NCBI GenBank assembly: GCA_958295495.1
Contig: OY282352.1
Location: 3,581,485 to 3,645,484 of the forward strand
Direction of reading: 5' to 3'
Source of the DNA: an uncultured Latescibacterota bacterium
Lineage (GTDB): Bacteria > Latescibacterota > UBA2968 > UBA8231
DNA: 64,000 nucleotides
Below are positions 25,106 through 55,156 of the stretch, one piece after another (the stretch's first letter is position 1; every line of letters starts with the position of its first letter). The notes beneath the pieces were generated by a model. The model was given only the letters and a program-made list of their open reading frames with translations. It did not search any database and had not been told where the DNA came from. A program made the translations under genes and the position numbers.

Positions 25106-25522
25106 CTATTCTTTTCGCAGCTCTTCCGTTGCCAGCGGTATTTTTTCAATCCCCACGCGCTTGGCCACCTCGAAGAGGTCCAGTAGGTACTTGTGCGGGG
25201 TCTCCTGATCGGTCCGCACTACCAGCGTTAGACTCCGGGTACCTTCTTTTTCCCGCAAAAGGACCTGCTCCAAATTGTCCAAGGTCACGAGCTGGCGGTT
25301 GATCTCCATGCGGCCATCCTCGGTGATCGTCGCCACTAGTTTCTTCTCTTCGACAATCTGCGCTTGTTGCGCTTCGGGTAATAGGACCTGGAGGCTGTAG
25401 GGCTGCTTAAACACTGTAGTTACCATAAAGAAGATCAACAGCAAAAAGACGCAGTCAATAAGCGGCGTCATGTTCAATTCTTGTTCTTCGTACAGGGATT
25501 TGCGCCTAGGCATCGGATTCAT
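25106..25522 (-). CDS. exbD: ExbD/TolR family biopolymer transport protein
   Basis: LNMTPLIDCVFLLLIFFMVTT with conserved TM Asp. Confidence 0.92.
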   Translation of the reverse strand: MNPMPRRKSLYEEQELNMTPLIDCVFLLLIFFMVTTVFKQPYSLQVLLPEAQQAQIVEEKKLVATITEDGRMEINRQLVTLDNLEQVLLREKEGTRSLTLVVRTDQETPHKYLLDLFEVAKRVGIEKIPLATEELRKE

Positions 25523-25935
25523 TCCTCTTGTTCCCGCACAAAAGCGATGCCCTCAACCCCGACCTCTTTGGCTTTATCCACCACAAACACTACGTGTTTC
25601 TGGGCGCACTCGCCGTCCGCCTGAATAATGATATTCTCGTTGTTGGCCTCTTCCATGGCCGCGACTAGCTGGGCTGCCAACGCCGCTGGCACCACGTCCT
25701 CTCCCTTGATTTGAATTTTGCCATCGCGGTCCAGCAAGACGTTGATATCTTTTTTCTTTTCTTCTGTAGCTTCGCTTTTGGCCGGCATGTCCACTTCCAG
25801 CCCTTTGGTGTGTATAAACACCGTGGTTACCATAAAAAAGATCAGCAGCAAAAAGACGCAGTCAATCAGCGGCGTCATATCCGGGCCGCCTTCTGCGAGA
25901 AAGCTCTCCGACCGCTGTTTTCGGTGTCTGGCCAT
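25519..25935 (-). CDS. exbD: ExbD/TolR family biopolymer transport protein
   Basis: DMTPLIDCVFLLLIFFMVTT; IIIQAD. Confidence 0.92.
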   Translation of the reverse strand: MARHRKQRSESFLAEGGPDMTPLIDCVFLLLIFFMVTTVFIHTKGLEVDMPAKSEATEEKKKDINVLLDRDGKIQIKGEDVVPAALAAQLVAAMEEANNENIIIQADGECAQKHVVFVVDKAKEVGVEGIAFVREQEE

Positions 25936-25959
25936 TGGGTGAACTCCTCCGAGCAGGAG

Positions 25960-26706
25960 CTACTCTGTCGTTCCGTATTGTTGGCGCTGTCCCATAGTGA
26001 TCAGAGCATTTGCAAAGGCATGTCCGTACATCTCGGCGTCTTCTAGCAGATTGTCCGCTTTGCGCGCTAGATAGCGGTACAATACAATCGTCGGGATGGC
26101 GACGATCAGCCCCGATGCCGTAGTGACCAAGGCTTGGGAAATCCCGCCGGCAACGACTTTCGGGTCTCCTGCACCAGCTATGGCGATGGACTCAAAGGCG
26201 ATGATCATCCCCATAATGGTGCCGAGCAATCCCAACAAAGGGGTTATATTGCCGATGGTATTCAGGATTGCCAAGTTTTTGCCCAGATAGGTCCGGGCGG
26301 ATTCCTCGGTCTGAATGACCAGCTCTTCTTTGAGATCGGCGAGTTCCCGTTGCATCACCATAAACCTGCCCACCTCGCCACCGCCGGCGGCATCAGCGAG
26401 GCGGATGATCTCCTCGTTCGTCTCTTTGAATTCTCGCTGTTCGATCATCAGCGTATGGTATCGTTTCAGCAGCGAAGCAAATACATAATTGAGTAGGCCC
26501 TTGCCGCGGTTGCACTCTTCCACGACCGCCTGTTCCCCGCCGTTGCGCAGCGCGGTTTCGAGCTTGTCCAACTCATTTTGGGCCTCTTCAGGCGTGGGCA
26601 ATTGCTTGAAGATCCACAGGCGTTCAATAGAGTAGGCAATGGCTAGAATAGCACAGGCGATTAGGGGGACCATCATCGGACCGCCACTTTGAATTATATC
26701 CCACAT
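25960..26706 (-). CDS. exbB: MotA/TolQ/ExbB proton channel protein
   Basis: GGPMMVPL; TPLLGLLGTIMGMIIAF; GGISQALVTTASGLIVAIP. Confidence 0.92.
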   Translation of the reverse strand: MWDIIQSGGPMMVPLIACAILAIAYSIERLWIFKQLPTPEEAQNELDKLETALRNGGEQAVVEECNRGKGLLNYVFASLLKRYHTLMIEQREFKETNEEIIRLADAAGGGEVGRFMVMQRELADLKEELVIQTEESARTYLGKNLAILNTIGNITPLLGLLGTIMGMIIAFESIAIAGAGDPKVVAGGISQALVTTASGLIVAIPTIVLYRYLARKADNLLEDAEMYGHAFANALITMGQRQQYGTTE

Positions 26707-26738
26707 TGCTATTGCTCCTTTTTGGCAAGAGAAGAGTT

Positions 26739-27677
26739 CTAGTCGTCTTCTTTGGCGTTTCTAGATAAGCGCTGCCCTATGCGCAAACCGGCATCGATGA
26801 CACCGAATTTCTCAACGACCTCGGCCTTGCACAAGTGCGGCCCGATAATCTGATGCACCCGGACCAGAGCGATTCGGATCTCTTTATCATACAACGGTAG
26901 GACATCGCCGTACTCGACGCGATCCAAAATACCGATGCCTAGATACACCTCGTCGGCTTCGACCGCCAAGACCTGGGCCTGCGCGCCGGAAAGGTCGATG
27001 GGGGGGCGCTCCGTCAGACTCGTAATCATTTGGCTGCTGAGGTCTCTGAAGGCGACATCGACGAGCTTGCCAAAAGCCAATTCAAAAAAACGCTCGGAAC
27101 CGAAGTCAACCTTGAAGAGTTCGCGGAATACCCGATCCTGTTTGCGCGGTCGGCCGAACAGGTCTAGGCCGTACGACTTTTCCGTGGAGTCCCTGAGCGT
27201 TTCAAAGGTCTCGACTATTTCTCCGGTCGCTACTCTGATTAGCTGCACTTGGCTGAGGTGGATCACTGAATTGTAAGATTTATAGCCGGCCAGATTGGGG
27301 TTTCCCACTGTCACGCGACGCATCCCCAACTGCTCCACCACACCGGTAATGACCAAGTCGGCACCCAAGCGTTGCCCCAGCCGCACAGCCTGGTCAATGC
27401 CGTAGTATTTTTTTACTTGTTTGTTTAATTGAACGGCCTCGACTTCCCGTGGCGGAATAACAAAGACCGCATCGTCTGCATCCAGATATCGACCTAGCAA
27501 ATCGGGTACATCCCTAGATAAGTGCCATTCCGCCTGAAAACCGGCTCGGTCCTCAAAATCGAGCAGGGCAAGGCGCAGGGTCGGCAGCGGTCCCTCGGCC
27601 GCGACCGCCATGTCGAGTGTTAGGGGGTCGGCCCCTGCCCAGATATAAAGGAATGAAATGGTTAGAAGCGGTTTCAT
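26739..27677 (-). CDS. Exported protein with CsgG/TolB-N/FlgT-like architecture
   Basis: LALLDFED..AVRLGQRLGADLVITGVV..LIRVATGEIV (CsgG/FlgO-like) plus C-terminal VLAVEADEVYLGIG..GD (FlgT-C-like); start MKPLL. Confidence 0.6.
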   Translation of the reverse strand: MKPLLTISFLYIWAGADPLTLDMAVAAEGPLPTLRLALLDFEDRAGFQAEWHLSRDVPDLLGRYLDADDAVFVIPPREVEAVQLNKQVKKYYGIDQAVRLGQRLGADLVITGVVEQLGMRRVTVGNPNLAGYKSYNSVIHLSQVQLIRVATGEIVETFETLRDSTEKSYGLDLFGRPRKQDRVFRELFKVDFGSERFFELAFGKLVDVAFRDLSSQMITSLTERPPIDLSGAQAQVLAVEADEVYLGIGILDRVEYGDVLPLYDKEIRIALVRVHQIIGPHLCKAEVVEKFGVIDAGLRIGQRLSRNAKEDD

Positions 27678-27783
27678 AACGGTCTTCGTATCTAAAGGCG
27701 CGGTGAACCCCCCGCACCCCACTACACAGCACCCACAAAATATCTTCAAACACGGGCGATTGGCAAGGGGCTTGCTGCACTTC

Positions 27784-27882
27784 TTAGGTTGCGATCTTTT
27801 GGTCGAATTCGAGGGCGATATCCACCATTTCCAGCGGCTGCCCGGAAGCGTCAAATTTCAGGACAAAGTCTTTGAAGAGTAT
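27784..27882 (-). pseudogene. 3' remnant of a paralog of the lipoprotein gene at 45727-46488
   Basis: ILFKDFVLKFDASGQPLEMVDIALEFDQKI vs LVLKDFVLKFDASEQPIETVDIIVEFDQQI. Confidence 0.85.
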
Positions 27883-27987
27883 AGGAGGGCACTTGGGTGG
27901 GCGGTTCTAAGATCCGGTCGGGCCACTCGGAGGCCGCCGACCAAGTGGCTATGAACAAAAAACAGAAGCTTGTTCGCGTCGCGGCCT

Positions 27988-30072
27988 TCACACCTCGACG
28001 TTCAACGCGCTGACCACGCCCGACACGCCCATGTTATTCAAGGCGCGCATCTCTAGCACGTTTAGTCCTTTGTGTAGGGACCAGTCAATTTGGGCCGGCC
28101 GCTCCTGCCATGGCTGCCCATCGATCCGCACCTCGAAGGTCAGAAAACCGGGCGTTTCCGTGTCCAGATAAATGCGTAGCTGGCGTTCGTCAATGGCCTC
28201 GGCGACATACCGCGTTTGATTGAGCGTCGGATAGAAATCCGCCCGCCGGTTAGTGTGCTGGGTAAAGTGGGGTAGCGGCGGGACCTGATCGTCGGCCCAG
28301 TTGAGATAGCCGTTCCACGACCACACTTCAGTACCTTGGCTCACCGGCAGGGGACGGGGCCGGCTGAACACGTCAAAACGCGGCACGATGCGGAAGTGGC
28401 AAAACGAGCGGAACAAAAAGAGCGCGCCCTCCGCGGTGGAATGTTCGTAGTCCCCATCGTAGAAGGCGATGGGCAGGTCTTTTACCACCGCCTCCAAGTC
28501 TTGGTGAAAAAGATAAGGGCGATCCCAGCGTTCGGGACGCTCTAGCCGTGCGGCCAGCACTTGGTGGATTTCTTGGGTGTCCAGCGGCACCAAGGTTTTG
28601 GGGTCGTACCAGTAATAATCGCGGGTGGCGTCTTGGTGCATCCACTTGCCGTAGTCATTGGACCAGACCTCGGCGATTTCGTGGCCGGTCATGCCCTCGC
28701 TGTGGAAATTGAGGTGGCGGGCGGGGATGCCCATGCTCAGACAGGCGGCCACCAGAACCACATTGGGATAAAGGCACATCTGGTCGCGCCGCCGCTGCTT
28801 GTACTGGTTCATCCGAATGGCGCCGTTCTCGTCCCGTTCAAGACAAACCCAGGCGAGTGGATCCCACGGAAAATGGCTGCACTCGCTCAGGGGGATGTGA
28901 TACGCCCAACGGTGCAGCCGCGCGATTTTATCGAATTCAGTCTGTGCCCCAGCCACTACCGCGTCCAATTCGCATTGCTGGCGCAAATCCCGCAGTATCT
29001 GGGCGCGATAGTCTTCATAAGGCATGGGGATAGACGGCCTTAGAATTTGGGCGTTCTTGGTGCTGACTAAACGACCTGTAAACCGCTCCCCTTGCTGGAA
29101 GTCGGCGTTGATCTGGACACTTTTGAGCACCGGGGATTGCAACCCGTCCGCGACTGAAAAATCGACTTTCCACTGGAGATAACGGCCTCTGACTGTTGCC
29201 GGTTGTCCGTCATAGACCTGCCAGCCGCTCCAGTGGTCTGTATCCCAGACAGGACGAGAGCCGGTTCGCAAGGCCCAAGCAAGCTGGGTGCCCTCGGGGA
29301 TATCCGCGTCCCAGTCTAGGGTTATGCGCTGCAGACTACGCTCGCTTTTAACAGCGTCTTCCGCTTCGCCAGCCGCGTCGATTACCTTAGAGACCAGCTC
29401 GCCATTGCTGCGAAAGCGGTCGAGGACCAAGCGCAGTACGTATTCCCCGCGCTCTGCTTTCGAGGTTTGGCCGCTGTCGATACTATGGCGGCTGGCGTAG
29501 GGAAGCGTTACTGGATCGTCCATGCCCTTGTAAAAGTCGCGGTAGTCCGCCACCATTAGCTGCCAGCCAGCCAAGCCTTCTACTGCGGCCACTTCAATCA
29601 CATTTTCGCCTAGCCGTAGCGTCTCCGGCGGAATATCCACATAGTACCAGCGGCTCCAACTCCACTGCCCCACCATCAACCCCCAGTATTGGTTGGCTTG
29701 GGGCGCGGCTTGGCGCGAGGGGGGGCGCAGGACTGGTTGTCCGTTTATTGTAAACCGGAGGGTGGACTGGTTGTCTTGGCGTTCCTTGGCTATAAACGCT
29801 AGCTGGGCCCCAAGTGCAGCCGGATCATCCAAATGCAGGGTTTTGCGGCACGCCGTCTGGCCGCTCACCTCGACAAAAGGCTCGATGTGTTCTTGGTCTG
29901 AACGGCCCGAGCCGGGCGCGTCGTTTTCGACCACTTGGCCGTCAAACAGGCGGATGCCCTCGTCCTGCCGACCCATCCACAAATCCGTCGTCTTGGCGGC
30001 ACTAGTATAGACCTCTTCGGCTTGCATAAAAATGGTAACGCGTTGCTCTTTGAGGGCAGTAGAGACAGTCAT
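27988..30072 (-). CDS. Transglutaminase-like domain protein
   Basis: Putative Cys-His-Asp triad: QMCLY, GHEIAEVWSNDYGKW, HQDAT; preceded by beta-rich domains. Confidence 0.7.
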   Translation of the reverse strand: MTVSTALKEQRVTIFMQAEEVYTSAAKTTDLWMGRQDEGIRLFDGQVVENDAPGSGRSDQEHIEPFVEVSGQTACRKTLHLDDPAALGAQLAFIAKERQDNQSTLRFTINGQPVLRPPSRQAAPQANQYWGLMVGQWSWSRWYYVDIPPETLRLGENVIEVAAVEGLAGWQLMVADYRDFYKGMDDPVTLPYASRHSIDSGQTSKAERGEYVLRLVLDRFRSNGELVSKVIDAAGEAEDAVKSERSLQRITLDWDADIPEGTQLAWALRTGSRPVWDTDHWSGWQVYDGQPATVRGRYLQWKVDFSVADGLQSPVLKSVQINADFQQGERFTGRLVSTKNAQILRPSIPMPYEDYRAQILRDLRQQCELDAVVAGAQTEFDKIARLHRWAYHIPLSECSHFPWDPLAWVCLERDENGAIRMNQYKQRRRDQMCLYPNVVLVAACLSMGIPARHLNFHSEGMTGHEIAEVWSNDYGKWMHQDATRDYYWYDPKTLVPLDTQEIHQVLAARLERPERWDRPYLFHQDLEAVVKDLPIAFYDGDYEHSTAEGALFLFRSFCHFRIVPRFDVFSRPRPLPVSQGTEVWSWNGYLNWADDQVPPLPHFTQHTNRRADFYPTLNQTRYVAEAIDERQLRIYLDTETPGFLTFEVRIDGQPWQERPAQIDWSLHKGLNVLEMRALNNMGVSGVVSALNVEV

Positions 30073-30214
30073 TGCACTTCCTTCCGTCAATGGGGCTTAC
30101 TGGCAAATGCAGAGAACGATCTATAGTATATATGGCCTGACAGCACAAGAGGCTTTTCATCCCTTGCGGAGGTTGCGCATCCGATCCATCCCTTGCAAGC
30201 ATTGGAGTTAGCGG

Positions 30215-32176
30215 ATGCAAGTTCCAAAAAAGAAGAATCAGGACGCGGCTTCTGCAGCGGGCGTTACGGTGCGCTCTCTGCTGGTCGGGTCTCTGATGAC
30301 TCTGGGTATCAGCACCATAGCACCCTACAGCAACATGATCCTGCGCGGCTCGAATTTTGCCCTCGATTTCAGTACGGCCGGTGCTATTTTTTTATTTTTT
30401 CTCTTTGTGTTCTTTATTCAAACCGGGCTCAAGGCCCTGCATCCCCGCTTGAGCCTGCGGCGTCAGGAACTGGTGGTCATCTATATCATGGCCATCGTGG
30501 GCTGCGCCATCCCCAGTATGGGGCTCACCGAATACCTCTTGCCCATCACTAGCGGCGTGCTCTACTACGCCACTCCAGAAAACGAGTGGGCGGAGCTGAT
30601 TCATCCTTTTGTTCGCCCTTGGCTCGTACCGCAAGACTACGATGCAGCCCGGTATTTCTACGAAGGTCTGCCCGAGGGGATGCCCATACCGTGGTCCGCT
30701 TGGTTGGTGCCTCTGTTGGCTTGGATCCCCCTCATTCTGTGCGTGTATGTGGCCATGATTTGCATTGCGGTCATCTTGCGGCGTCCTTGGATCCAGGACG
30801 AACGCCTGAATTTTCCGCTCATTCAGGTGCCCATCGCCATGATTGCCGAGGGCGGGCCAACGGACCGACTCAGTCCCTTTTTTAAGAATCCGATCATGTG
30901 GGCCGGCTTTGCCATTCCCTTCTTCATCGGCTCCATCCGCGCCCTGCACAACTACTACGATTTTGTCCCTGACATCGTTCTGGTCACCAGCATCCCGCTT
31001 TTCCGCAATACCACCAACCTACAGATCGCCCTGAGCTTCCCCATGGTGGGTTTCGCCTTTCTGGTCAATCTCGATATCGCTTTTAGTATCTGGTTTTTTA
31101 ACTTAGTCGGCCGCGTCCAAGAAGGGACCCTTGGCATTCTGGGTGTGGCGAGTACGGAAAAGCTCAATTTCGCCACCATCCCGATCTTCGCCCACCAAGG
31201 CATGGGTGCCATGATCGTGCTGGTATTCTTCAGCCTGTGGATGGCCCGCCGGCATCTGGTGCGGGTTTTTCGCAAGGCGTTTACAGGGCTCCCGGATGTC
31301 GATGATTCGGACGAGATGCTCTCCTACCGGACCGCTGTTTTCGGCCTTATAGGCACGAGTCTTTTTATCGGGGTTTGGCTGGCACTGGCGGGTTTGGCGT
31401 GGTGGGTGGTGCCCATCTATTTGTTCGCCATGTTCACGCTGTTCGTCGGCATTACCCGGGTTGTGGCCGAAGGCGGTATTGCCGCCACCCGGGCGCCGCT
31501 GATCGCCGCGGATTTTGTCACCTCGGGTCTGGGCTCTGCAGTGCTCGGAGGCCAGACCCTCACAACGCTAAGTTTCACCTATGTTTGGGCCGCTGACATC
31601 CGCACCTTTGTCCTAGCCTCCTGCGCCAATGGCCTCAAATTGGCCGAAGAGTATTTGCGCGGGAGCAAACGGGCACTTTTTGCCGCTATCATGCTGGCCA
31701 TCTGCATTAGTCTGGGGGCTTCGATCTGGATCGTACTCTATCTGAGCTATACCTACGGAGGTGTTAATCTAGAGCCTTGGTTTTTCATCAGCGGCCCCCA
31801 AGTGCCCTTCAAATTTGTGGCGCACGAGCTCCATAGGCTAGACGGTCCCGATCTGGTAGGCTGGATCTCAACCCTAGTCGGCGGCGGGGTCATGGCCCTG
31901 TTGATGATTGCGCGTCAGCACCTGTTCTGGTGGCCCCTGCACCCTCTTGGGTATGCCGTCAGCGCCAGCACCTACCTGACCAACTACATTTCTTTCAGTG
32001 TCTTTTTGGCTTGGCTAATCAAAGCCATCATTCTCAAGTACGGAGGCCCGGCCTATTTTCGGCAGGCCTGTCCTTTTTTTTTGGGATTGATTCTGGGCCA
32101 ATTTTCCGTGGCCGGGGCGTGGCTGGTTATCGACTACTTTACGGGCATGACCGGCAATTCCATTTACTGGGTCTAG
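30215..32176 (+). CDS. DUF6785/DUF6784-like polytopic membrane protein (putative peptide transporter)
   Basis: ELVVIY, W..PLLAW, ERLNFPLIQVP, WWPLHPLGY, ILKYGG..PFFLGLILG; many TM helices. Confidence 0.75.
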   Translation: MQVPKKKNQDAASAAGVTVRSLLVGSLMTLGISTIAPYSNMILRGSNFALDFSTAGAIFLFFLFVFFIQTGLKALHPRLSLRRQELVVIYIMAIVGCAIPSMGLTEYLLPITSGVLYYATPENEWAELIHPFVRPWLVPQDYDAARYFYEGLPEGMPIPWSAWLVPLLAWIPLILCVYVAMICIAVILRRPWIQDERLNFPLIQVPIAMIAEGGPTDRLSPFFKNPIMWAGFAIPFFIGSIRALHNYYDFVPDIVLVTSIPLFRNTTNLQIALSFPMVGFAFLVNLDIAFSIWFFNLVGRVQEGTLGILGVASTEKLNFATIPIFAHQGMGAMIVLVFFSLWMARRHLVRVFRKAFTGLPDVDDSDEMLSYRTAVFGLIGTSLFIGVWLALAGLAWWVVPIYLFAMFTLFVGITRVVAEGGIAATRAPLIAADFVTSGLGSAVLGGQTLTTLSFTYVWAADIRTFVLASCANGLKLAEEYLRGSKRALFAAIMLAICISLGASIWIVLYLSYTYGGVNLEPWFFISGPQVPFKFVAHELHRLDGPDLVGWISTLVGGGVMALLMIARQHLFWWPLHPLGYAVSASTYLTNYISFSVFLAWLIKAIILKYGGPAYFRQACPFFLGLILGQFSVAGAWLVIDYFTGMTGNSIYWV

Positions 32177-32182
32177 ACTCCC

Positions 32183-32908
32183 TCAGCCTTCGTCGTATCC
32201 CTTTACGGGCCGCGCCCAGATATTGCGATAGCGCACGAGGTCGCCGTGGTCTTGCAAGCGGAGCGGGCCGGTGGGGGGATGCGCTTCGTAGCGATAGACG
32301 CCGCGATGGCCTGTGGGGCCTAAGACCTCGACGTGGTGGTGGACTAAGACGCCGTTGTGGGCCAAAGTGAGATAGGCCGGGCTGACTAGTTCAGTGCCAT
32401 TGAAGCGCGGGGCCTTCCAGAATATGTCGTAGGTCTGCCATTCGCCGGGCGGGCGGCAGGCGTTGACTAGCGGCGGGTACTCGCCATAGACGGCGGCCGT
32501 GGTGCCGTCGGCATACGTGGGGTTGTCGTATCCGTCGAGGACTTGGATCTCGTATAGGCTCATGAGAAAGACGCCGCTGTTGCCGCGCCCTTGGCTCTCG
32601 CCTTTGATCTCGCTGGGGCAGGCGAATTCGAGGTGGTACTGGACATCGCCAAAGCGCGCCGTGCTCACGATGTCGCCGGAACGGGGCGCGACCTCCATGT
32701 ATCCGTCGGCCACCTGCCAAGGGGCGTCGCCGCCGTTTGCGCTCTGCCAGCTGTCGAGGCTAGTCCCGTCGAAAAGGACGACCGCGTCTGAGGGGGGGCT
32801 GTTGTGGCTGCCGGGGGTCACAACCGCCGGAGCGGGCCGCTGGTGATCGTGGACGCAATAGGAAGAATTGGGTAGTAGAGGGGTATCGTCGTAGCCTGAT
32901 TTGCCCAT
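32183..32908 (-). CDS. DUF1080 / 3-keto-disaccharide hydrolase family protein
   Basis: PPSDAVVLFDG, GRGNSGVFL, YEIQVLD, PGEWQTYDI, LQDHG..YRNIW. Confidence 0.88.
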   Translation of the reverse strand: MGKSGYDDTPLLPNSSYCVHDHQRPAPAVVTPGSHNSPPSDAVVLFDGTSLDSWQSANGGDAPWQVADGYMEVAPRSGDIVSTARFGDVQYHLEFACPSEIKGESQGRGNSGVFLMSLYEIQVLDGYDNPTYADGTTAAVYGEYPPLVNACRPPGEWQTYDIFWKAPRFNGTELVSPAYLTLAHNGVLVHHHVEVLGPTGHRGVYRYEAHPPTGPLRLQDHGDLVRYRNIWARPVKGYDEG

Positions 32909-33002
32909 TTGGAAAAGCTCCTTGTTGGGGTGAGATAGGTTGGGATATAAAGGGAGTAGGACGCGCTCGCGTCAATGGCCCGCTCTTGAGCACCACATTA
33001 TA

Positions 33003-33017
33003 TTGAATGCCATTCAA
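33003..33017. promoter_or_regulatory. Perfect inverted repeat TTGAATG-C-CATTCAA, candidate operator in a divergent intergenic region
   Basis: Palindrome 12 bp upstream of ATG 33030. Confidence 0.4.
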
Positions 33018-33029
33018 CGGGAAGGCGCG

Positions 33030-37388: not shown

Positions 37389-37421
37389 ATGCCCCGTCCC
37401 AATATCCTCTTCATTATGACG
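37389..37421 (+). pseudogene. Sulfatase N-terminal stub
   Basis: MPRPNILFIMT just downstream of the 37369 stop, then unrelated sequence. Confidence 0.5.
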
Positions 37422-37624
37422 ACTCCTACCAGAATCGGGCGGCAGGAGCTAAGGCCGCCAAAACGCGGATTGACCGCGCTGTACTACCGCTACTAGATGC
37501 ACTTGGCGCATCATCCGCGCCCGCTACCGAAATAGTTGGGATGCTCCAGAACCCATCGCATGTGGTTTTGCCCATTCTTGAGCACTAAGCGAGCTCACAA
37601 ACGCACAAGTGAAAAGTCCGCTGC

Positions 37625-38632: not shown

Positions 38633-38652
38633 GATCGCTATTCGGCCTTTCC

Positions 38653-40026: not shown

Positions 40027-40190
40027 TGCACCCTCCTCGATGAAAAATTCCAATAGTGATCTAAAAGGAAAGGAATCATTCTCATTATACGCAAATCCAT
40101 CCTAGGCCTTCACTGGCCTTTCACACAAAATTCGGTAGTAATTCGGTAGTATCAAAAAATTCATCTTGACATCTACACTACAGGATGTCG

Positions 40191-40361
40191 CTGCATATAG
40201 ATCAACGAGGCCACCGACGAAATGGTCGCGCAGACCTTGACCCCCAATAGCCAAGATGACTCAGGGCAGGTGGAACCGCTGCTGGGACACGTCGAAGTGC
40301 CCGTGGACCGGTTGGGCGGCGATGGGGCTAGGACCAACGCAAGGTCTTCGACGCCTTGGCC
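40191..40361 (+). mobile_element. IS5-family (IS903-group-like) transposase fragment
   Basis: LHI..INEATDEMVAQTLT..QDDSGQVEPLL..LGGDGA/DQRKVFDALA with frameshifts, resembling the DGAYD segment. Confidence 0.6.
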
Positions 40362-40444
40362 GCGCCCGAGCGGGGCCGCCCATTTGGCCGATTATTGGTA
40401 CTTAAACCATCGGCGGCAGGGGCCAAAAAGCTCGGCCGGTTTTC

Positions 40445-41962
40445 ATGCAACATAGTCCCCCCACAACCTTGGTAATCCGGGAGCTTTCAGATATCGCGGA
40501 TTATGCGTTTGACGGCTCGGATCTGGAGATTCCCTTCACGCTTGAGGGCACTGGAGCCACGGTGTTTCTGGTTATCTACACCGTTGATCAGCACCCCCCG
40601 CTGACCGTAGAGGGCGAAGGACCCGGACCGTATAACGATCCCGAGCACGCGGCGGCTGGCATGTGTTTGAGGATGTGGATTGGCTGGTCTTCAAGTCCGA
40701 CGGTGTGCGCTTAGAAGAGGGTGCCAATACCATCGTGTGGAACGGCCGCGACCTGAACGGCGAGATCGTACCTGCGGGCAGCTACGATCTCTTCCTAGCC
40801 GCCTTTGACGACGAGGCGACCCCGCATATAGTCGGAACGATTCGTCCCAACTTTGGAGGGGTTCACCAGCTAATCGTCGATACGGATCGGGGGCTCATGT
40901 TTGGCCCTTCCGAATACGTGCATACTATGGAGAACGACTGGATTGAGAACCTGACGGGCAGAGACGAAGTCAACCGGCAGGAGGTGGAAGCCGCGTGCGG
41001 TGATAATTGTTCCAGCAACATCCACAATGGAACCCCGTTGAACGACGATTACACCGAGTGGATCGGCAATATAAACGGCGGCGGTGGTTGGCTCGTGCGC
41101 TACAATTTTGATTGGGATGCACTCCAGGTTATTCCCCAGAGCGATTGGGCTCTGGACGCGGGTGCCGTAGATGGAATCCTCAGTTGCGGCGACGCGCTTC
41201 CGGGTCGCCAGTACGCCAGCATCACCAATCCGGAAAAAACGATCGTCTGGGCTGGCGGTGGGGTATCCGGCACCGTGGCCAAACTCACCGGCTGGGATGT
41301 GGAGACCGGCGAATTGGTCCCCGACCAAGTGGGGCTGGACCGTGTATCCCGCAGGGGGAGCAGATGTCGTCAATTACGGATACGTGCTGGGGGAAGATGG
41401 CTCGGGCCTATTCAAATTCCAGCCCAAGGCCATCCCGGCGACCTTTCCGGACCATCTAATGATAGTTGACGAGGGTGAGAGCGATTGGGACGGCGTCTAC
41501 CTCAACATAGGTGCGGGCGAAGGGGGAGCAGCGACCAATGACTGGATTAGTCAATTGGGAGATGATCCAAATCCGTTGGTACCTCTCCTCTTTCCCATCG
41601 TGCACATGCCGTACGACCAGAAGCGGGTGAGCTTGGGTGGGACGGCTACCGCAGTGAGCCAAATGGAGACGGAGGCCCTGCCTACCTCTTACGAGTTGGG
41701 CAATGCCTATCCCAACCCGTTCAATCCGGAGACCACCATCCGCTTCTCCCTGCCGTGGGAGGCCGACATAACGGTCAAGATCTTCAACGAGCAGGGGCAA
41801 TTCGTGCGCGACTTGGTCAACGACCGCATGGGGCCCGGAGAGTTCAGGGTGACTTGGGATGGCACGGATGCCAACGGTGCTCAAGTGGCCAGCGGCGTGT
41901 ACATCTACAAGATTCAAGGTCCCGACTTGCGGATGAGTAAGAAGGTTACGTTGCTCAAATAG
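40445..41962 (+). pseudogene. Degraded paralog of the 43419-45329 FlgD/CTD protein
   Basis: Three frames match the intact gene (LSDIADYAFDGSDLEI; LVFKSDG..WNGRD; YDQKRV..GNAYPNPFNPET..KKVTLLK); frameshifts near 40655 and 41325, internal deletion, no signal peptide. Confidence 0.88.
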
Positions 41963-42020
41963 ACAATGTGGTAGGGATCACAAGACAAAGAAGTTAGGTC
42001 GCGTACTGGAGTGCGTGGAG

Positions 42021-42056
42021 AAACAGAGGATTTAATCGTCCTCTGTTTTTCTTTTT
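42021..42056 (+). terminator. Rho-independent terminator
   Basis: aaacagagga-tttaatcg-tcctctgttt followed by T tract. Confidence 0.8.
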
Positions 42057-42076
42057 AGGCTAACGGTGCAACCGGA

Positions 42077-43147
42077 TTGGTAGTATGTCCAATATTCAAC
42101 ATGCCGCCGCTCTTGCGCTCGGCCTTATTCTGGTTTGGAGCGGGCATTCCCTTCACCATTGGCAGTATCACGGCTTTGCACGCCTATTATCCTGTCTTTC
42201 CGAAGATCGAACTCTATACGCTCCTGCCAATTTTCCGCCGCAGCACTCTACTTCGACCCGGCCTCTACTTTACAACCATCAGTTTTACTTATTTTCTGAG
42301 TCGGGACATCTCCCTGGGGATCTGGTTTTTTAACCTGCTGGCCAAGCTTCAGGAAGGGTCGTTCAATCTTCTGGGGGTTTCCAGCACCGAATATATGGAG
42401 TGGGTTACGGTGCCTATCCTGGCGCATCAGAATATCGGGGCCATGATTGTCTTCGTGCTCTTCGGTCTATGGATGGGCCGCTCCCATCTGAGGGCGGTGG
42501 TGTGCAAGGCGTTCAGGGGTGACGCGTCGGTGCAAGATGCGGACGAGGTGATGTCGTACCGGACCGCGGTCGCGCGTCTTCGTCATGGCCGCCTGTGCCA
42601 ATGCGCTCATGATGGCGGAGAAGATCCGCGGCAGACGGAGGATATTGCTGTGGGCTATGCTGGTCGCGATTCTGGTCAGTGCGCTAGGTTCTATCTGGGT
42701 TGAGATGGCACTGAGGTATCGCTATGGGGGCATTAACCTGAGCGGGTTTTTCACGGGACTGGTGCACTATCCATTCAGATTCATCGCGCGCAATTTGTCA
42801 AATCCCACGGGCCCTCAGTGGGGCGGGTGGTTGTGGACAGCGTACGGCGGCGTCTTGATGGGGGGCTGATGTTGGCCCGGCAACGCTTGTCGTGGTGGCC
42901 CATCCACCCCATGAGTCTGCCGATCAGTTCAATGTGGATGACGGACTCCATTATGCTGAGCGTCTTTCTATCCTGGTTGATCAAAGGGGTTATCTTGAAG
43001 TACGGGGGACGACGACTCTACGACCGAGGCAAGCCATTTTTCATCGGCTTGGTCATCGGCCAGTTTGCCTGCATGGGGTGCTGGCTGATTATAGATTATT
43101 TTACCGGTATGACAGGTAATGTGGTGTACCGGTTGAGTGGAGATTGA
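42077..43147 (+). pseudogene. Degraded paralog of the DUF6785-like transporter (30215-32176)
   Basis: Fragments in 3 frames: DISLGIWFFNL..EVMSYRTAV / ACANAL..YGGINL / WWPIHP..ILKYGG..IDYFTGMTGN; N-terminal third and an internal block missing. Confidence 0.88.
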
Positions 43148-43348
43148 CTCATGACAAATATGTCCTTACTCGGGTAGTGCTCCCGTCGATCAACTAGGCC
43201 AATACGGTGGCACCTAGCACGGAATGATCACCACCGCCTGCGCCAAGGGCCTGCCGGAAATACGCCGTGCGCGTGTCCATCAACCTCACCGCGTTGTACT
43301 GCCACCCACCTGAACCGCACGAGATCGGCGACAATCACCTCTTTGAGC

Positions 43349-43382
43349 AAAAAAAGCGCCGCCGGCAAAACCGGCGACGCTT
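43349..43382 (-). terminator. Rho-independent terminator of 43419-45329
   Basis: Minus strand aagcgtcgccgg-tttt-gccggcggcgc-ttttttt. Confidence 0.8.
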
Positions 43383-43418
43383 GGTGTAGGCCCATCTAGG
43401 CGATTGGCCGCGAGAACC

Positions 43419-45329
43419 TCATTTGAGGAAAGTCACCTTCTTGCTCAAACTCAGGTTCGGCGCATTGATCTTATAGATGTACACTCCGCTGGCGACCTGA
43501 TGGCCCGCGTTGTCCGTGCCGTCCCAAGTCACCTCGAACTGCCCCGCGTTCAACGTCTCGTCAACCAGTGTGCGGACGAGCTGACCTTGGTCGTTGAAGA
43601 CGTCGATCTTGACGTCAACGCTCCAAGGCAGGGAGAAGCGAATGGTCGTCTCGGGGTTGAACGGGTTGGGATAGGCATTGCCCAACTCGTAGGCGTCCGG
43701 CGTGTTCCCTTCCTGCTCGGTAACCGCCGTCATCATCGTACCTAGGTTGACCCTCTTCTGATCATAGGGCCAGTGCGCGATGGGATAGGTATTGGGAAAA
43801 GGCGTATCAGCGGGTATCCAGTCGTTGGTGGCGGCTTCGTCCTGAATGCCGCCCACGGCTAAGTACACGCCGTCCCAGTTGGTGTCGTCGTTGACGATGA
43901 TGGTAAACTGCGGCCAAGTCAGGGGGGCTTGCTTGGGTTGGAAATTGAACAGACCCGAGCCGTCCTGGCCCAGGACGTATCCGAAGTTGACATTGTCGAG
44001 ACCGTTGGCCGGCAGCGAGACCCAGCCCCAGTCGGTGACATAGACCGAGTACTTGAAGTTGGGTGCCTCGGTGTGGCCGTAGATCAAGTCGGCAAAGCCG
44101 GCCTCCGCGCTCCAGGGCTTCTGGTCGCCAAAGCCGTCGCCGTTGCGGTTGATCCACTTCAAGTTGCCGTCCCAGTCGTGGCGCGTTATCAACGAGGTGT
44201 GGTGGCTAGTGGCGGCAATGCCAAAGGGATCGGGCTCGCCGTTGTACTGCTTGGCCACCCAACCGGGGCCGCTGCTGCGGTCGCTGCCCTTGTTGTCGTA
44301 GAGCCACAGATCTGACTGATCCCACTCGAAGAGCTTTTCGCCGGTCTCGACCGACCAGCCGACCATGGAACTCTGGGTGCCGGAGACCCCGCCAGTAGTC
44401 AGCAGGATGGTCTTGTCCGGATTGAGGTATGAGCCGTAGGAACGGCCGGGCATGCCGTTCTCGATGACGCCGTTTTCGGCACCGGCGTCCAAGCCCCAGT
44501 CCTCGTCGGCGATGAGTTGGTTGGAATCCCAGTCGATGGAACCGCGCAGCATAAAACCCGTCCCAGACTGGATATTACCGATCCAGTCATTGCCACTGAG
44601 CAGGTTGATGGTCCTGAGGGCCTCGCCGTTGCAGCGCTCGCCGCAGGCATCGCTCAGGGAGGTAGCATCAAAGGCGTCGAGTGACTCCGTCTGGGCGGCC
44701 CAGTCGTGCTCAATCCAGTCGTCGGTCATAGTCGCCTTGTACAGGGCACCGTACAGCAGGTCGCGGCTCGGGTCGATGGCGACAAAGCGATACGAACCCG
44801 TGGTCCGCTTCACCGGACCGACGAGATGGGGCGTGGCCTCGTCGTCATAGGCGGCCAGGTACAGGTGGTACGCGCCGGCCTCCACGACATTGCCTTCCAT
44901 GTCGCGGCCGTTCCACACGATGGTGTTGGAGCCCTCTTCAAAGCGCTGGCCCTCGGACTTGAAGACCAAGAAATCGACGCCGTCGTACACGTGCCAACCC
45001 GGAGCGCCGTGCTCGGCGTCTTGGTACGGGGGCGGCCCTTCGCCCTCAATGGTCAGGGGTGGATTCTGGCCCACGGTGTAGATAATGAGCCACACGGTGG
45101 CACCGGCACCATCGAGGGTGAAATTGATCTCCAGATCCGAACCATCAAAGGCGTAGTCTTCGATGTCGCTTAGCCCTTCGATGGTGAGGATGGTGGGAGC
45201 TATGCCGCCGCTGGTCATATCGGCCAAGCCGACGTCGGCGCTACCGGCGTGCAGAAAAGCGCTGGCAGACCCCACAGAGAGGAATAGAGCCATGACGGCC
45301 ATTCCCAAAATTTGCAATACTTTCATCAC
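43419..45329 (-). CDS. Secreted acidic protein with N-terminal FlgD-like domain, beta-rich core and C-terminal FlgD/T9SS type A-like CTD
   Basis: Signal peptide; NTIVWNGRDMEG..GAYHLYL; AYPNPFNPETTIRF..WDGTD..ASGVYIYKI..KKVTFLK. Confidence 0.82.
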   Translation of the reverse strand: MMKVLQILGMAVMALFLSVGSASAFLHAGSADVGLADMTSGGIAPTILTIEGLSDIEDYAFDGSDLEINFTLDGAGATVWLIIYTVGQNPPLTIEGEGPPPYQDAEHGAPGWHVYDGVDFLVFKSEGQRFEEGSNTIVWNGRDMEGNVVEAGAYHLYLAAYDDEATPHLVGPVKRTTGSYRFVAIDPSRDLLYGALYKATMTDDWIEHDWAAQTESLDAFDATSLSDACGERCNGEALRTINLLSGNDWIGNIQSGTGFMLRGSIDWDSNQLIADEDWGLDAGAENGVIENGMPGRSYGSYLNPDKTILLTTGGVSGTQSSMVGWSVETGEKLFEWDQSDLWLYDNKGSDRSSGPGWVAKQYNGEPDPFGIAATSHHTSLITRHDWDGNLKWINRNGDGFGDQKPWSAEAGFADLIYGHTEAPNFKYSVYVTDWGWVSLPANGLDNVNFGYVLGQDGSGLFNFQPKQAPLTWPQFTIIVNDDTNWDGVYLAVGGIQDEAATNDWIPADTPFPNTYPIAHWPYDQKRVNLGTMMTAVTEQEGNTPDAYELGNAYPNPFNPETTIRFSLPWSVDVKIDVFNDQGQLVRTLVDETLNAGQFEVTWDGTDNAGHQVASGVYIYKINAPNLSLSKKVTFLK

Positions 45330-45340
45330 ACTTCCTCGCT

Positions 45341-45361
45341 TTTTAAGTTTTAAGTTTTAAG
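45341..45361. repeat. 7-bp tandem repeat TTTTAAG x3 directly upstream of the 45329 RBS
   Basis: Direct reading. Confidence 0.85.
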
Positions 45362-45442
45362 TTGTGCATGGATTTTTCGGTTGCCATGTTGCTCAATCTT
45401 GGCATCCTTGCGGGGCGGAATGATCGGCCGAATGGGTGGCCC

Positions 45443-45484
45443 CCGCGCCGACTCCTCGGTCTGAATCACCAGTTCCTGTTGCAG
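45443..45484 (-). pseudogene. exbB remnant
   Basis: LQQELVIQTEESAR vs intact ExbB LKEELVIQTEESAR; DNA similar to about 26293-26334. Confidence 0.8.
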
Positions 45485-45486
45485 CA

Positions 45487-45630
45487 TCATGCCTCCTCTA
45501 CGCTGTCCCTAGACACTGCGGCAATGGCCTCGTCCGCCGCGAGGTATTTTCCCAGAAGCGCGGGAACGTCCCCGGCCAATTTCCACTTTCCCTAAAAGCC
45601 TGCCTTGTCTTCAAAGTCGAGAACGGCGAC
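45487..45630 (-). pseudogene. 5' remnant of a paralog of the CsgG/FlgT-like gene (26739-27677)
   Basis: VAVLDFEDKAGF*GKWKLAGDVPALLGKYLAADEA vs LALLDFEDRAGFQAEWHLSRDVPDLLGRYLDADDA. Confidence 0.85.
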
Positions 45631-45726
45631 GCACACGATAAAATCCGCACTCTCTTGCCGCCCCCGGGTCGCTCCAGCGGCGAAGATGCAGAGGAGCGCC
45701 CCTCGGCGTGCCCCTCGGACCTATCC

Positions 45727-46488
45727 CTAGGGCGCGGCGGTCGCCTGTTGCACTGCCTTCCTTTCGATTTGTTGATCGAATTCGACAATGATGTCCACTG
45801 TTTCTATGGGCTGTTCGGAAGCGTCGAATTTCAGGACGAAATCCTTGAGTACCAAGCGCACCTGCCGCACTTCCTCGTCGAGCCGTTCAAAGGCTAGCAG
45901 ACCAGTGTAGTTTTCTCCCTTGAACACTTTCTGGTCCTCTATATAAGCGGTGCTGCGTACATTGCCCATGCGCAGGTCGAAACGGTAGAACTCGTTGCCG
46001 CTCTGGCCCCGGATGGCCCGGTAGTAGCGCTCGAAACTATTGTGCGGCGAGAAAGACGGCAGGCCAAAGGAATGTAGCACCTCGCCCCGATCAGTGTAGA
46101 GCAGGGCCTTGATGGGGTCCAGCATGACCTTGGCGTACACATCGTTGGTGACGCTGATGCGGAATACAGTGAAGCGCTTGGGCGTATGGCCCACGAGCGG
46201 GTCGATCCAGTCCCCGTATGTATAGGGGTTGGTGGAGAAGAAACCCCGGTGCGAGTCCTCGGGGAATATAGCGTTTAATTCCGCGTCGGTCATGGACTCG
46301 ACTTTGACGCGCAAGCCTTCGACGGCGTAGGTGATGGCTCCAGCCTCCTCCACATAGTCCTTCGGGCTGGCCTGCTGGGCACTGGGGATCAGGTCGTTAT
46401 TGTACAGAATACTAGGCGGCGTGAAGAAACTGCACCCGCTGAAAACCAGCAGTAAGGCGGCAAAAAAACGCATGATCGCGTACCTCAT
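45727..46488 (-). CDS. Hypothetical lipoprotein
   Basis: Lipobox-like LLVFSGC; ATGA coupling to upstream gene. Confidence 0.75.
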   Translation of the reverse strand: MRYAIMRFFAALLLVFSGCSFFTPPSILYNNDLIPSAQQASPKDYVEEAGAITYAVEGLRVKVESMTDAELNAIFPEDSHRGFFSTNPYTYGDWIDPLVGHTPKRFTVFRISVTNDVYAKVMLDPIKALLYTDRGEVLHSFGLPSFSPHNSFERYYRAIRGQSGNEFYRFDLRMGNVRSTAYIEDQKVFKGENYTGLLAFERLDEEVRQVRLVLKDFVLKFDASEQPIETVDIIVEFDQQIERKAVQQATAAP

Positions 46489-55155: not shown

Positions 55156-55156
55156 A

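What the first reader, a model, noticed from the sequence alone, without database searches (positions are those of the whole stretch)
25106..46488. One ancestral operon split between two reciprocally eroded copies
Locus A (46.5-45.4 kb) has the intact lipoprotein gene, then a stop-containing stub of the CsgG/FlgT-like gene (45487-45630) and an exbB stub (45443-45484). Locus B (27.9-25.1 kb) has only a stub of that lipoprotein gene (27784-27882), then intact CsgG/FlgT-like, exbB, exbD, exbD. The stubs are diverged paralogs, not identical copies. Each locus kept what the other lost, which links exbBDD to the barrel operon and suggests selection kept one complete set.
Basis: partly seen in the sequence, partly recalled or inferred. 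Interest (0 to 1): 0.85.

Follow-up and report, generated by a model that had tools for sequence, protein, structure and literature searches.

The report
Two half-eroded copies of one operon
This bacterium holds two diverged versions of one large cell-envelope gene cluster, each has lost the part the other kept, and related genomes preserve the intact cluster and intermediate stages.

Summary
All three stubs exist at the stated places. Contigs built from public reads bridge both junctions, and five other genomes share them.

The history differs from a simple in-genome duplication. Locus B is the resident "R-type" 15-gene cluster: TGase-like, 636, 742, 884, 933, 1041, TPR, 185, 127, DUF4159, lipoprotein, FlgT/CsgG-like, exbB, exbD, exbD. 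It is intact and contiguous in 4 related genomes. In this genome about 21 kb of it is gone, leaving a 106-nt lipoprotein stub that is 84-90% identical to R-type genes but only 75-80% to the locus-A gene.

Locus A is a second, divergent "A-type" copy on a 23-kb insert. Its own FlgT-like/exbB genes are reduced to stubs, at one junction shared by all 6 carriers. Its nearest intact relative is a metagenome contig. An exclusive A+R clade is rejected (p-AU 0.002).

The kept genes are under purifying selection. That selection kept "one complete set" is plausible but unproven, and genome G001 has no complete set.

Verdict: a clear natural case of complementary loss that produced a split, mosaic operon. 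Moderate interest.

The parts
25106..25522 (-). exbD (second), intact, resident R-type module
   Evidence: Pfam PF02472 E 8e-30. 92-96% aa identical to 10 relatives. dN/dS 0.04-0.11.
25519..25935 (-). exbD (first), intact
   Evidence: Pfam PF02472 E 2e-28. dN/dS 0.05-0.12.
25960..26706 (-). exbB, intact
   Evidence: Pfam PF01618 E 2e-28. dN/dS 0.06-0.20.
26739..27677 (-). FlgT/CsgG-like periplasmic protein, intact, 312 aa from the ATG at 27677
   Evidence: No Pfam hit at E <= 0.01. AlphaFold model pLDDT 83.7. Best PDB folds are FlgT 3w1e/8z5n at E 1e-12, then CsgG at 3e-6 and the TolB N-domain. Orthologs are 86-93% identical in 8 genomes. dN/dS 0.11-0.18.
27678..27775 (-). Segment of about 95 nt found only in the split-type genomes. 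It supplies the new ATG start and holds a fragment of a genomic repeat.
   Evidence: Shared by G000, G010, G013, G021 and G022 and absent from 6 R-type loci. It contains 22 of 23 nt of the core of a repeat with at least 29 copies. A promoter-like match lies at 27766-27737, but such matches are no more frequent here than in shuffled sequence.
27770..27882 (-). Stub of the resident (R-type) lipoprotein gene: last ~33 codons plus stop
   Evidence: 83.5-89.6% nt identity to R-type genes against 75-80% to A-type. 24-28 of 33 aa match the six R-type genes, against 21-22 for the three A-type genes and 22-23 for the two metagenome genes compared.
27988..30090 (-). Transglutaminase-like 700-aa gene. 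It is the first gene of the resident cluster and now directly precedes the stub.
   Evidence: Pfam PF01841 E 8e-5. In G007, G008, G043 and G044 it is followed by 636R, 742R and the rest through exbD.
40065..63480 (.). A-type island: a 23.4-kb segment where R-type genome G044 has an unrelated 3-kb segment
   Evidence: blastn synteny stops at 40064 and resumes at 63481. No tRNA gene in the window.
43419..45329 (-). 636-aa FlgD-Ig / T9SS-tail protein (A-type), downstream of the stubs. A terminator-like hairpin follows at 43382-43354.
   Evidence: Pfam. Terminator scan. 92-95% identical in the 5 other A carriers.
45374..45446 (-). Fragment of a short repeat element abutting the exbB stub
   Evidence: 67-72-nt matches at 86-89% identity at many sites in G001 and G022. 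G005 keeps a 376-nt version. Single copy in G000.
45443..45484 (-). exbB stub of the A-type copy (ExbB residues 125-138)
   Evidence: 12/14 identical. Same junction in 6 of 6 A carriers, and G005 keeps a longer piece.
45494..45696 (-). FlgT/CsgG-like stub of the A-type copy, with an in-frame TAG
   Evidence: Best DNA match is metagenome L080 at 79.6% over 142 nt, with tblastx extending to 68 codons. Further deleted in G010, G013, G021 and G022.
45727..46488 (-). Lipoprotein, A-type, intact (253 aa, Cys19 lipobox)
   Evidence: No Pfam. Family found in Latescibacterota and Gemmatimonadota MAGs. Beta-sandwich model pLDDT 84. dN/dS 0.12-0.33.
46485..47720 (-). DUF4159 protein, A-type, intact
   Evidence: Pfam PF13709 E 1e-28. 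94-96% identical in A carriers against 72-74% to R-type.
47738..62890 (-). Upstream A-type genes: 127 aa, 185 aa (weak DUF5683), 1098-aa TPR, three paralogous 1041/933/884-aa proteins, and a 742-aa F5/8-type-C protein with a T9SS tail
   Evidence: ORFs. Pfam. Paralogy of the three large proteins. 46-65% aa identity to R-type counterparts. Atlas lead to a TonB-dependent-receptor-like barrel family at 0.89 only.

Best explanation
The window holds two homologous versions of one 15-gene envelope-machine cluster, and each has been cut down to what the other lacks.

The intact cluster runs: transglutaminase-like, 636, 742, 884, 933, 1041, TPR-1098, 185, 127, DUF4159, lipoprotein, FlgT/CsgG-like, ExbB, ExbD, ExbD.

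Shown:
- The resident (R-type) version lies at a conserved chromosomal position and is contiguous in related genomes. Here about 21 kb, from just after the transglutaminase-like gene to lipoprotein codon ~211, has been deleted. That leaves a 106-nt lipoprotein stub followed by intact FlgT-like, exbB, exbD and exbD (locus B).
- A second, strongly diverged (A-type) version lies on a 23-kb insert about 12 kb away (locus A). It keeps 742 through lipoprotein plus 636. Its own FlgT-like, exbB, exbD and exbD genes were reduced to stubs of about 200 nt and 42 nt by deletions. All six carriers share this junction, so the A-side erosion happened once.
- The R-side erosion happened at least twice, with different end points: once in G005 and once in the split type.

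Inferred:
- The A copy arrived after the resident one, by transfer from a related lineage.
- Redundancy then allowed complementary deletions. Both deletion junctions abut fragments of short repeats, so repeat or mobile-element-mediated deletion is likely.
- The result is a hybrid system: an imported, variable upstream module served by the conserved resident FlgT-like/ExbBDD motor module, which now has a new ATG start.
- The split arrangement has since moved between species of the genus by recombination.
For: Stubs and their specificity.

Contiguous R-type cluster:
- It is complete in G007, G008, G043 and G044, with the same flanking genes as in the window (DUF6785, 3-keto-disaccharide hydrolase and others).
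- 12 of 30 metagenome loci show lipoprotein, FlgT-like, exbB in that order. A further 8 of 30 carry exbB, exbD, DUF4159, lipoprotein in another order.

Stages of erosion:
- G005 has the A copy plus a resident copy with DUF4159 truncated at residue 180, a frameshifted lipoprotein gene that has lost invariant residues, and intact FlgT-like/exbBDD.
- G000 keeps only the 106-nt stub. G022 equals G000 minus the stub. G010, G013 and G021 have none.
- On the A side, G005 is the most complete and the others carry different further deletions.

The A copy is not a recent in-genome duplicate:
- It is 46-74% aa identical to R-type, while the downstream module is 89-96% identical between genomes.
- The A lipoprotein is sister to metagenome L080 (bootstrap 97 / SH-aLRT 94). 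L080 carries an intact contiguous downstream module.
- An exclusive A+R clade is rejected (p-AU 0.0022).

The A copy is younger than the core genome. dS between G000 and the other carriers is 0.09-0.23 for four A genes, against 0.27-0.40 for rpoB. For the B module it is 0.18-0.77 over all ten genomes compared. Nucleotide distance is 0.032-0.057 against 0.069-0.105.

The A island is an insert relative to G044.

The types interleave on an rpoB-rpoC tree. G010 (split) is sister to G044 (R-type), G013 (split) to G002 (neither type), and G022 (split) to G001 (R-type), each with support 100.

The kept genes are constrained: dN/dS is 0.04-0.20 for the B module and 0.12-0.34 for A genes.

Junctions are verified by independent contigs.

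Repeat fragments lie at both junctions.
Against: - No experiment or expression data show that the A upstream module uses the locus-B motor module.
- G001 keeps 185, 127, DUF4159, lipoprotein, FlgT-like and exbBDD of R-type but has lost 636 through most of the TPR gene. It has no 1041 ortholog above 35% identity anywhere. The downstream genes can therefore persist without a complete set, at least for a time.
- The genome has 14 lipoprotein paralogs, several DUF4159 paralogs, 4 exbB loci and 3 FlgT-like genes. The B module might serve other clusters.
- G010 carries an extra orphan 1041-like gene at 62-65% identity, which this model does not explain.
- Transfer versus an old paralogy with differential loss is not settled. 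No donor genome is identified. The closest outside lipoprotein is only 83% identical. The AU test group was named after a first tree had been seen.
- The species tree rests on one 9-kb locus.
- The local tree of the B module does not group the split-type genomes, so a single origin of the B junction requires later recombination close to the junction.
Confidence: 0.8

Rival explanations
1. In-genome duplication of the whole operon in an ancestor, followed by long divergence of the two paralogs and reciprocal decay. Both copies would be vertical, and R-only genomes would have lost the A copy entirely.
For: A and R are homologous gene for gene, and in the genus searches (31 genomes) each is the other's closest relative for DUF4159 (72-74% identity, next best at most 58%). 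They lie within 20 kb of each other in all 6 carriers. No integrase or tRNA gene marks the island.
Against: The A lipoprotein groups with metagenome L080, P0070 and P0071, and R groups apart. An exclusive A+R clade is rejected (p-AU 0.0022). dS among A carriers is about a third to a half of rpoB dS. A is present in 6 of 31 genus genomes and R in 11 of 31, interleaved on the rpoBC tree, so vertical descent would need many independent whole-copy losses.
Confidence: 0.12
2. The complementarity has no functional meaning. The FlgT-like/exbBDD module works on its own or with other paralogous clusters. The A cluster no longer needs such a module. The two deletions are unrelated neutral events in a rearrangement-prone region.
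For: G001 keeps the downstream module without a complete upstream set. There are many paralogous lipoprotein, DUF4159 and exbB loci in the genome. The region is rich in rearrangements and pseudogenes.
Against: Loss of resident upstream genes is seen in 6 of 6 A carriers, through at least two different deletions, against 1 of 5 genomes without A. These numbers are small and the genomes are related. The gene set is kept together in 20 of 30 metagenome loci. The retained genes on both sides are under purifying selection.
Confidence: 0.2
3. Assembly artefact: the stubs or junctions are chimeras of a collapsed or misjoined repeat.
For: None found. The window differs from read-derived contigs by a few indels at 40.1-42.9 kb.
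Against: Contigs from 4 public runs bridge both junctions. The same A junction occurs in 5 other genomes and the same B junction sequence in 4 others.
Confidence: 0.01

Closest known systems
Mosaic operons by xenologous gene displacement (Omelchenko et al., Genome Biol 2003;4:R55). I saw only the title, in the reference list of PMC1779527. The paper itself is not held, so its content is recalled.
   Same: Part of an operon ends up with a different evolutionary origin from the rest, after a homologous foreign copy comes to coexist with the resident one and the redundant genes are lost.
   Different: Here the incoming copy did not replace genes in place. It sits 12-17 kb away, so complementary loss split the system into two loci. 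Both sets of stubs and several intermediate genomes survive.
Reciprocal gene loss / duplication-degeneration-complementation after duplication (yeast whole-genome duplication, recalled; Hodgkinia lineages in cicadas, PMC10287537, search listing and start of abstract seen).
   Same: Two redundant copies lose complementary parts, so that both become indispensable together.
   Different: This case is within one free-living-type bacterial chromosome, at the level of modules of one operon, and the second copy is most likely a xenolog rather than a duplicate.
Vibrio FlgT (H-ring of the flagellar basal body; PDB 3w1e, 8z5n)
   Same: It is the best structural match of the locus-B protein (Foldseek E 1e-12). 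Both have a CsgG/TolB-N-like alpha/beta domain followed by beta domains. Both are encoded or act beside a MotA/ExbB-family motor (the FlgT-stator link is recalled knowledge).
   Different: 14% identity, TM-score 0.38-0.40, and profile-to-PDB sequence E of only 0.25. None of the 30 window proteins scanned matched a flagellar-structure Pfam family other than the FlgD Ig-like domain in two T9SS-tail proteins.
ExbB-ExbD-TonB and TolQ-TolR-TolB-Pal envelope energy-transducing systems
   Same: ExbB (PF01618) and two ExbD (PF02472) genes are present. The FlgT-like protein shares the TolB N-domain fold. One large upstream protein has a weak lead to TonB-dependent-receptor-like barrels (0.89).
   Different: No TonB or TolA family was detected in the cluster. 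Partners are DUF4159, a beta-sandwich lipoprotein, a TPR protein and T9SS-tail proteins. The function is untested.

Membership tests
MotA/TolQ/ExbB proton channel (PF01618) | Significant match to the family profile over the channel domain | tested here: met
   25960-26706: E 1.8e-28, 99 bits against a cut-off of 22.9.
ExbD/TolR (PF02472) | Significant match to the family profile | tested here: met
   Both 138-aa proteins: E 2e-28 and 8e-30.
CsgG curli channel (PF03783) | Match to the Pfam profile | tested here: not met
   No Pfam family at E <= 0.01 for the window protein. One homolog (P0015, 61% identical) carries a precomputed PF03783 hit.
CsgG curli channel (PF03783) | CsgG-like fold of the periplasmic domain | tested here: met
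   Foldseek hits to CsgG chains at E 3e-6 to 2e-5, but TM-score only 0.24-0.32.
CsgG curli channel (PF03783) | Lipoprotein anchor and membrane-spanning hairpins forming a nonameric barrel | not tested
   No lipobox cysteine is visible in the N-terminus of the window protein or of L080 (read). Oligomer and membrane insertion were not modelled.
FlgT (flagellar H-ring) | Whole-chain fold similarity | tested here: met
   3w1e and 8z5n are the top hits at E 1e-12 and 4e-12, covering 304-311 alignment columns, TM-score 0.38-0.40.
FlgT (flagellar H-ring) | Sequence homology and a flagellar gene context | tested here: not met
   Profile against PDB sequences E 0.25. None of the 30 window proteins scanned matched a flagellar-structure Pfam family other than the FlgD Ig-like domain.
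DUF4159 (PF13709) | Match to the family profile | tested here: met
   46485-47720: E 1.4e-28.
Complementary (reciprocal) loss between two homologous copies | Two homologous copies of the same multi-gene unit in one genome | tested here: met
   Stubs of each missing part lie at the expected position in each copy. The full unit is seen in relatives.
Complementary (reciprocal) loss between two homologous copies | Each function retained exactly once, with no third close copy | tested here: met
   Whole-genome tblastn: no other FlgT-like gene above 30%, no exbB above 46%, no lipoprotein above 55%, and no second copy of the upstream genes at 38% or more.
Complementary (reciprocal) loss between two homologous copies | The two remaining halves work together | not testable with these tools
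   Only purifying selection on both halves was shown.
Xenologous origin of the A copy | Gene tree places the copy with another lineage rather than with the resident copy | tested here: met
   A is sister to L080 (97/94). An exclusive A+R clade is rejected at p-AU 0.0022. The group was named after a first tree had been seen.
Xenologous origin of the A copy | Identified donor, or mobility genes on the island | tested here: not met
   Nearest outside lipoprotein is 83% identical. No tRNA gene. No integrase or transposase family among the island genes scanned.

The most novel reading that the evidence does not exclude
The locus is a trans-species structural polymorphism of an uncharacterised ExbBD-powered envelope machine of Latescibacterota-like bacteria. 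A conserved motor module (FlgT-like ring protein, ExbB, two ExbD) is interchangeable. It can drive alternative, strongly diverged upstream modules: three giant putative outer-membrane proteins, TPR, DUF4159 and a lipoprotein. These upstream modules are swapped between species by recombination, perhaps under diversifying selection on surface parts. The split arrangement in this genome would then be a working hybrid of a foreign upstream module and the native motor, encoded in trans.
Probability: 0.3. Interest if true: 0.65.

Novelty: new member of a known kind. Interest (0 to 1): 0.5.

Why it matters
Operons are usually thought to break up by insertions, rearrangements or simple deletions. Mosaic operons are usually inferred from gene trees alone. 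Here the physical traces of the process survive in one genus:
- an intact ancestral cluster;
- a genome with both versions, one partly decayed;
- genomes with complementary stubs;
- genomes where the stubs are gone.

This series shows how a redundant second copy can turn one operon into two interdependent loci. It also marks which part of an unknown 15-gene envelope system is exchangeable (upstream genes, 46-74% identical between types) and which is conserved (FlgT-like/ExbBDD, about 90% or more). Finally, it ties a FlgT-like protein and an ExbB-ExbD-ExbD motor to a DUF4159, lipoprotein and TPR gene set that recurs many times in these genomes and has no described function.

Tried and rejected
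- Chance or paralog noise: rejected by E-values and by the type-specific identity of each stub.
- Assembly chimera: rejected.
- First AU test: flawed, because two R-like database proteins (P0081, P0084) were left outside the constrained group. It was repeated without them, and only the second result is used.
- Local tree of the FlgT-like/exbBDD DNA: star-like, and it does not group the split-type genomes. It therefore gave no support for one origin of locus B. That inference rests on the shared junction sequence.
- Promoter and terminator scans: counts were not above shuffled expectation. The promoter-like site at 27766-27737 is only a lead.
- Rfam: no family for the window or for the repeat. 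One sub-threshold CRISPR-DR hit (E 0.69) was ignored.
- tblastx of the 376-nt G005 insert against intact exbB/exbD genes: nothing, so it is not recognisable exbD remnant.
- The 67-72-nt element next to the exbB stub is single-copy in G000.
- Complex prediction of A-type lipoprotein with the locus-B FlgT-like protein: no verdict (score 0.13, mark 0.32). Not evidence either way.
- Lipoprotein fold search: only weak beta-sandwich matches (YjhA, ApaG; best E 4e-4), with no functional lead.
- Protein Atlas for the 1041-aa protein: nearest named cluster scores 0.89, a lead only.
- Literature: 'DUF4159' occurs in 1 paper, the Pfam database paper. 'Reciprocal gene loss' + operon + bacteria gave 8 papers, none on a case like this judging from listing and abstract starts. 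I found nothing in print on this cluster with these two searches. Supplements were not consulted.
PMC193655 is not held.
No habitat claim is made.

Full report
1. Observation.

- Locus B (25.1-27.9 kb, minus strand) has intact exbD, exbD, exbB (Pfam PF02472 twice and PF01618) and a 312-aa protein with no Pfam hit. Before them lies a 38-codon match to the C-terminus of the locus-A lipoprotein (25/38 identical, E 5e-10), which ends in its own stop.
- Locus A (45.3-46.5 kb, minus strand) has the intact 253-aa lipoprotein. After it come a 45-codon match to the 312-aa protein (24/45 identical, one TAG, E 5e-10) and a 14-codon match to ExbB residues 125-138 (12/14 identical).
- Contigs assembled from four public runs of one sample, about 0.5% different from the window, run across both junctions. 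The same junction sequences occur in other genomes. The stubs are therefore real DNA, not assembly errors.

2. What the genes are.

The 312-aa protein folds with confidence (pLDDT 83.7). Its best solved matches are Vibrio FlgT (E 1e-12), then CsgG, the TolB N-domain, PelC and GNA1162. Membership of either family is not established: there is no Pfam hit and the profile-to-PDB E is 0.25.

The lipoprotein is a beta-sandwich with a helical insert and no informative match.

Upstream of locus A, on the same strand, lie:
- DUF4159 (411 aa);
- a 127-aa and a 185-aa protein;
- a 1098-aa TPR protein;
- three paralogous proteins of 1041, 933 and 884 aa without Pfam hits;
- a 742-aa F5/8-type-C protein with a type IX secretion tail.

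A 636-aa FlgD-Ig/T9SS-tail gene and a strong terminator-like hairpin follow the stubs. Database homologs that carry a source name are called hypothetical proteins of Latescibacterota or Gemmatimonadota MAGs, or one "TolB-like protein".

3. Relatives show the undivided cluster.

In G007, G008, G043 and G044 the order is, on one strand: transglutaminase-like 700, 636, 742, 884, 933, 1041, TPR, 185, 127, DUF4159, lipoprotein, FlgT-like, exbB, exbD, exbD. The neighbours (DUF6785 gene, 3-keto-disaccharide hydrolase and others) are the ones that flank locus B in the window. I call this the R (resident) type.

Of 30 metagenome loci found with the lipoprotein:
- 12 show lipoprotein, FlgT-like, exbB contiguous;
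- 2 more show lipoprotein, FlgT-like up to the contig end;
- 8 carry exbB, exbD(, exbD), DUF4159, lipoprotein in another order;
- the remaining 8 are either too short to tell (5) or lack exbB nearby (3).

The link between exbBDD and the upstream operon is thus well supported. The contiguous order is the ancestral one.

4. Locus B is the resident cluster with a hole.

In the window the transglutaminase-like gene (27988-30090) is followed after about 100 nt by the lipoprotein stub and then the FlgT-like gene. Compared with G007, everything from 636R to lipoprotein codon ~211, about 21 kb, is missing.

The stub is 83.5-89.6% identical in DNA to the six R-type lipoprotein genes, but 75-80% to A-type genes including the window's own. 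At protein level it matches the six R-type genes at 24-28 of 33 residues, against 21-22 for the three A-type genes and 22-23 for the two metagenome genes compared.

Between the stub and the FlgT-like start, the five split-type genomes (G000, G010, G013, G021, G022) share a segment of about 95 nt that is absent from R-type loci. It replaces the coupled TTG start, which in R-type lies 9 nt after the lipoprotein stop, with an ATG.

That segment contains 22 of 23 nt of the core of a repeat with at least 29 copies in this genome. One family of that repeat, about 145 nt long, has some 19 copies. There is no Rfam match.

Only G000 still has the stub. G022 is identical in layout minus the stub, and G010, G013 and G021 have a different left junction.

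5. Locus A is a second, diverged version.

Its genes are 90-97% identical to those of G005, G010, G013, G021 and G022. They are only 46-74% identical to the R-type genes of G001, G007, G008, G043 and G044. Across the same genomes the FlgT-like/exbBDD genes are about 89-96% identical.

All six A carriers share the same fusion of FlgT-like codon ~79 to ExbB codon ~116-125, and the same end of the exbB piece. G005 keeps the longest remnants. The others have further, differing deletions.

The best DNA match of the A-side FlgT-like stub is metagenome contig L080, at 79.6% over 142 nt. There is no blastn match to the resident gene. L080 carries a lipoprotein 83% identical to the A type, followed by intact FlgT-like, exbB, exbD and exbD. 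The A type therefore once had its own downstream module.

A 67-72-nt element that is multi-copy in G001 and G022 abuts the exbB stub.

6. Origin and order of events.

- In lipoprotein trees, A is sister to L080 and then to P0070/P0071, while R groups apart. Forcing A+R into one exclusive clade costs 29 log-likelihood units (p-AU 0.0022). The caveat is that I named the group after seeing a tree.
- The A island (40065-63480) replaces an unrelated 3-kb segment of G044.
- Synonymous divergence between G000 and the other carriers is 0.09-0.23 for DUF4159A, lipoA, TPR and 636A, against 0.27-0.40 for rpoB. For the locus-B genes it is 0.18-0.77 over all ten genomes compared.
- On an rpoB-rpoC tree the split type, the R type and genomes with neither type interleave, with fully supported sister pairs of different type. 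This is one locus only.

I conclude with moderate confidence that the A copy entered later and has spread between species. The alternative is an old paralogy with many losses.

G005 shows the intermediate state. It has an A copy with stubs, plus a resident copy with DUF4159 cut at residue 180, a frameshifted and decaying lipoprotein gene, and an intact downstream module.

7. Is one complete set kept by selection?

In favour:
- All 6 A carriers have lost resident upstream genes through at least two different deletions.
- None kept the A downstream genes.
- G000 has no other close copy of any of these genes.
- Both retained halves show dN/dS of 0.04-0.34.

Against:
- G001 has the R type cut inside the TPR gene and no 1041 ortholog elsewhere, so an incomplete set exists in nature.
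- G010 has an unexplained orphan 1041-like gene.
- The genome has many more distant paralogous cassettes.
- No expression or interaction evidence is available.

8. Comparison with what is known, and novelty.

The process matches complementary loss between redundant copies and the formation of mosaic operons by xenologous displacement. That literature is recalled; I saw only the title of Omelchenko et al. 2003, in a reference list. What is unusual is that both stubs and a graded series of intermediates survive, and that the outcome is a split hybrid system rather than an in-place replacement. The cluster itself has no described function. 'DUF4159' occurs in only one held paper, the Pfam database paper.

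I rate this a new member of a known kind, with interest 0.5.

Noticed in passing
window 40460-41962 (+): Inverted, diverged copy of the 636-aa T9SS-tail gene, read in three different frames here (45-73% identical pieces). The corresponding gene is one open frame in G022. Read-derived contigs of a close strain differ by small indels at 40653 and 40888 and by a replaced stretch at 41321-41470.
   Followed up: partly
window 42077-43147 (+): Fragments of a DUF6785/DUF6784 gene (profile positions 200-360 of 498, plus the C-terminal part). A full-length copy of 93-99% identity is intact in G022 (L053 943-2874). The family has about 30 full-length members in this genome.
   Followed up: partly
genome-wide; one variant in window at about 10585-10600; core also at 27692-27707: A repeat with the exact 16-mer TTCACCGCGCCTTTAG occurs 29 times in the genome. 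About 19 copies belong to a ~145-nt unit with hairpin-forming parts and a sharp 3' boundary. There is no Rfam family. Its nature (MITE, small RNA or other) is unknown.
   Followed up: partly
window 45374-45446; G001 and G022 genomes: A 67-72-nt element next to the exbB stub has 10 listed copies in G001 and at least 8 in G022, but one in G000. G005 holds a 376-nt version at the same place.
   Followed up: partly
window 8590-9520 and 9541-10470 (+): Two adjacent genes (284 and 286 aa) are about 90% identical at protein level, a recent tandem duplication.
   Followed up: no
window 668-4501 (-): The 1277-aa ORF contains several internal tandem repeats of about 100 residues (50-90% identical) and a C-terminal T9SS-type tail similar to that of the 636-aa protein.
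   Followed up: no
G001 (L058 12221-13807; L114 3414-6005): In G001 the R-type cluster is cut inside the TPR gene and joined to a DUF6785 gene that lacks its first 222 codons. The nearby GH4 gene is interrupted by about 1.2 kb.
   Followed up: partly
G010 (L116 13485-16625): An orphan gene 62-65% identical to the 1041-aa protein lies upstream of the A-type cluster, beside a DUF6785 paralog and without the other cluster genes.
   Followed up: no
G000 genome 3505071-3516476, 5883416-5885719 and 102469-104938: There are more distant paralogous cassettes of the same parts. One has DUF4159 (47%), then about 8.5 kb further a lipoprotein (55%) followed by a FlgT-like gene (27%). A second has exbB, exbD, exbD, lipoprotein. 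A third has exbB, exbD, DUF4159. The genome holds 14 full-length lipoprotein paralogs.
   Followed up: partly
window 46485-47720 (-): The DUF4159 protein has an N-terminal membrane helix followed by a basic, proline-rich spacer before the DUF4159 domain. This layout is reminiscent of TonB. It is read from the translation only.
   Followed up: no
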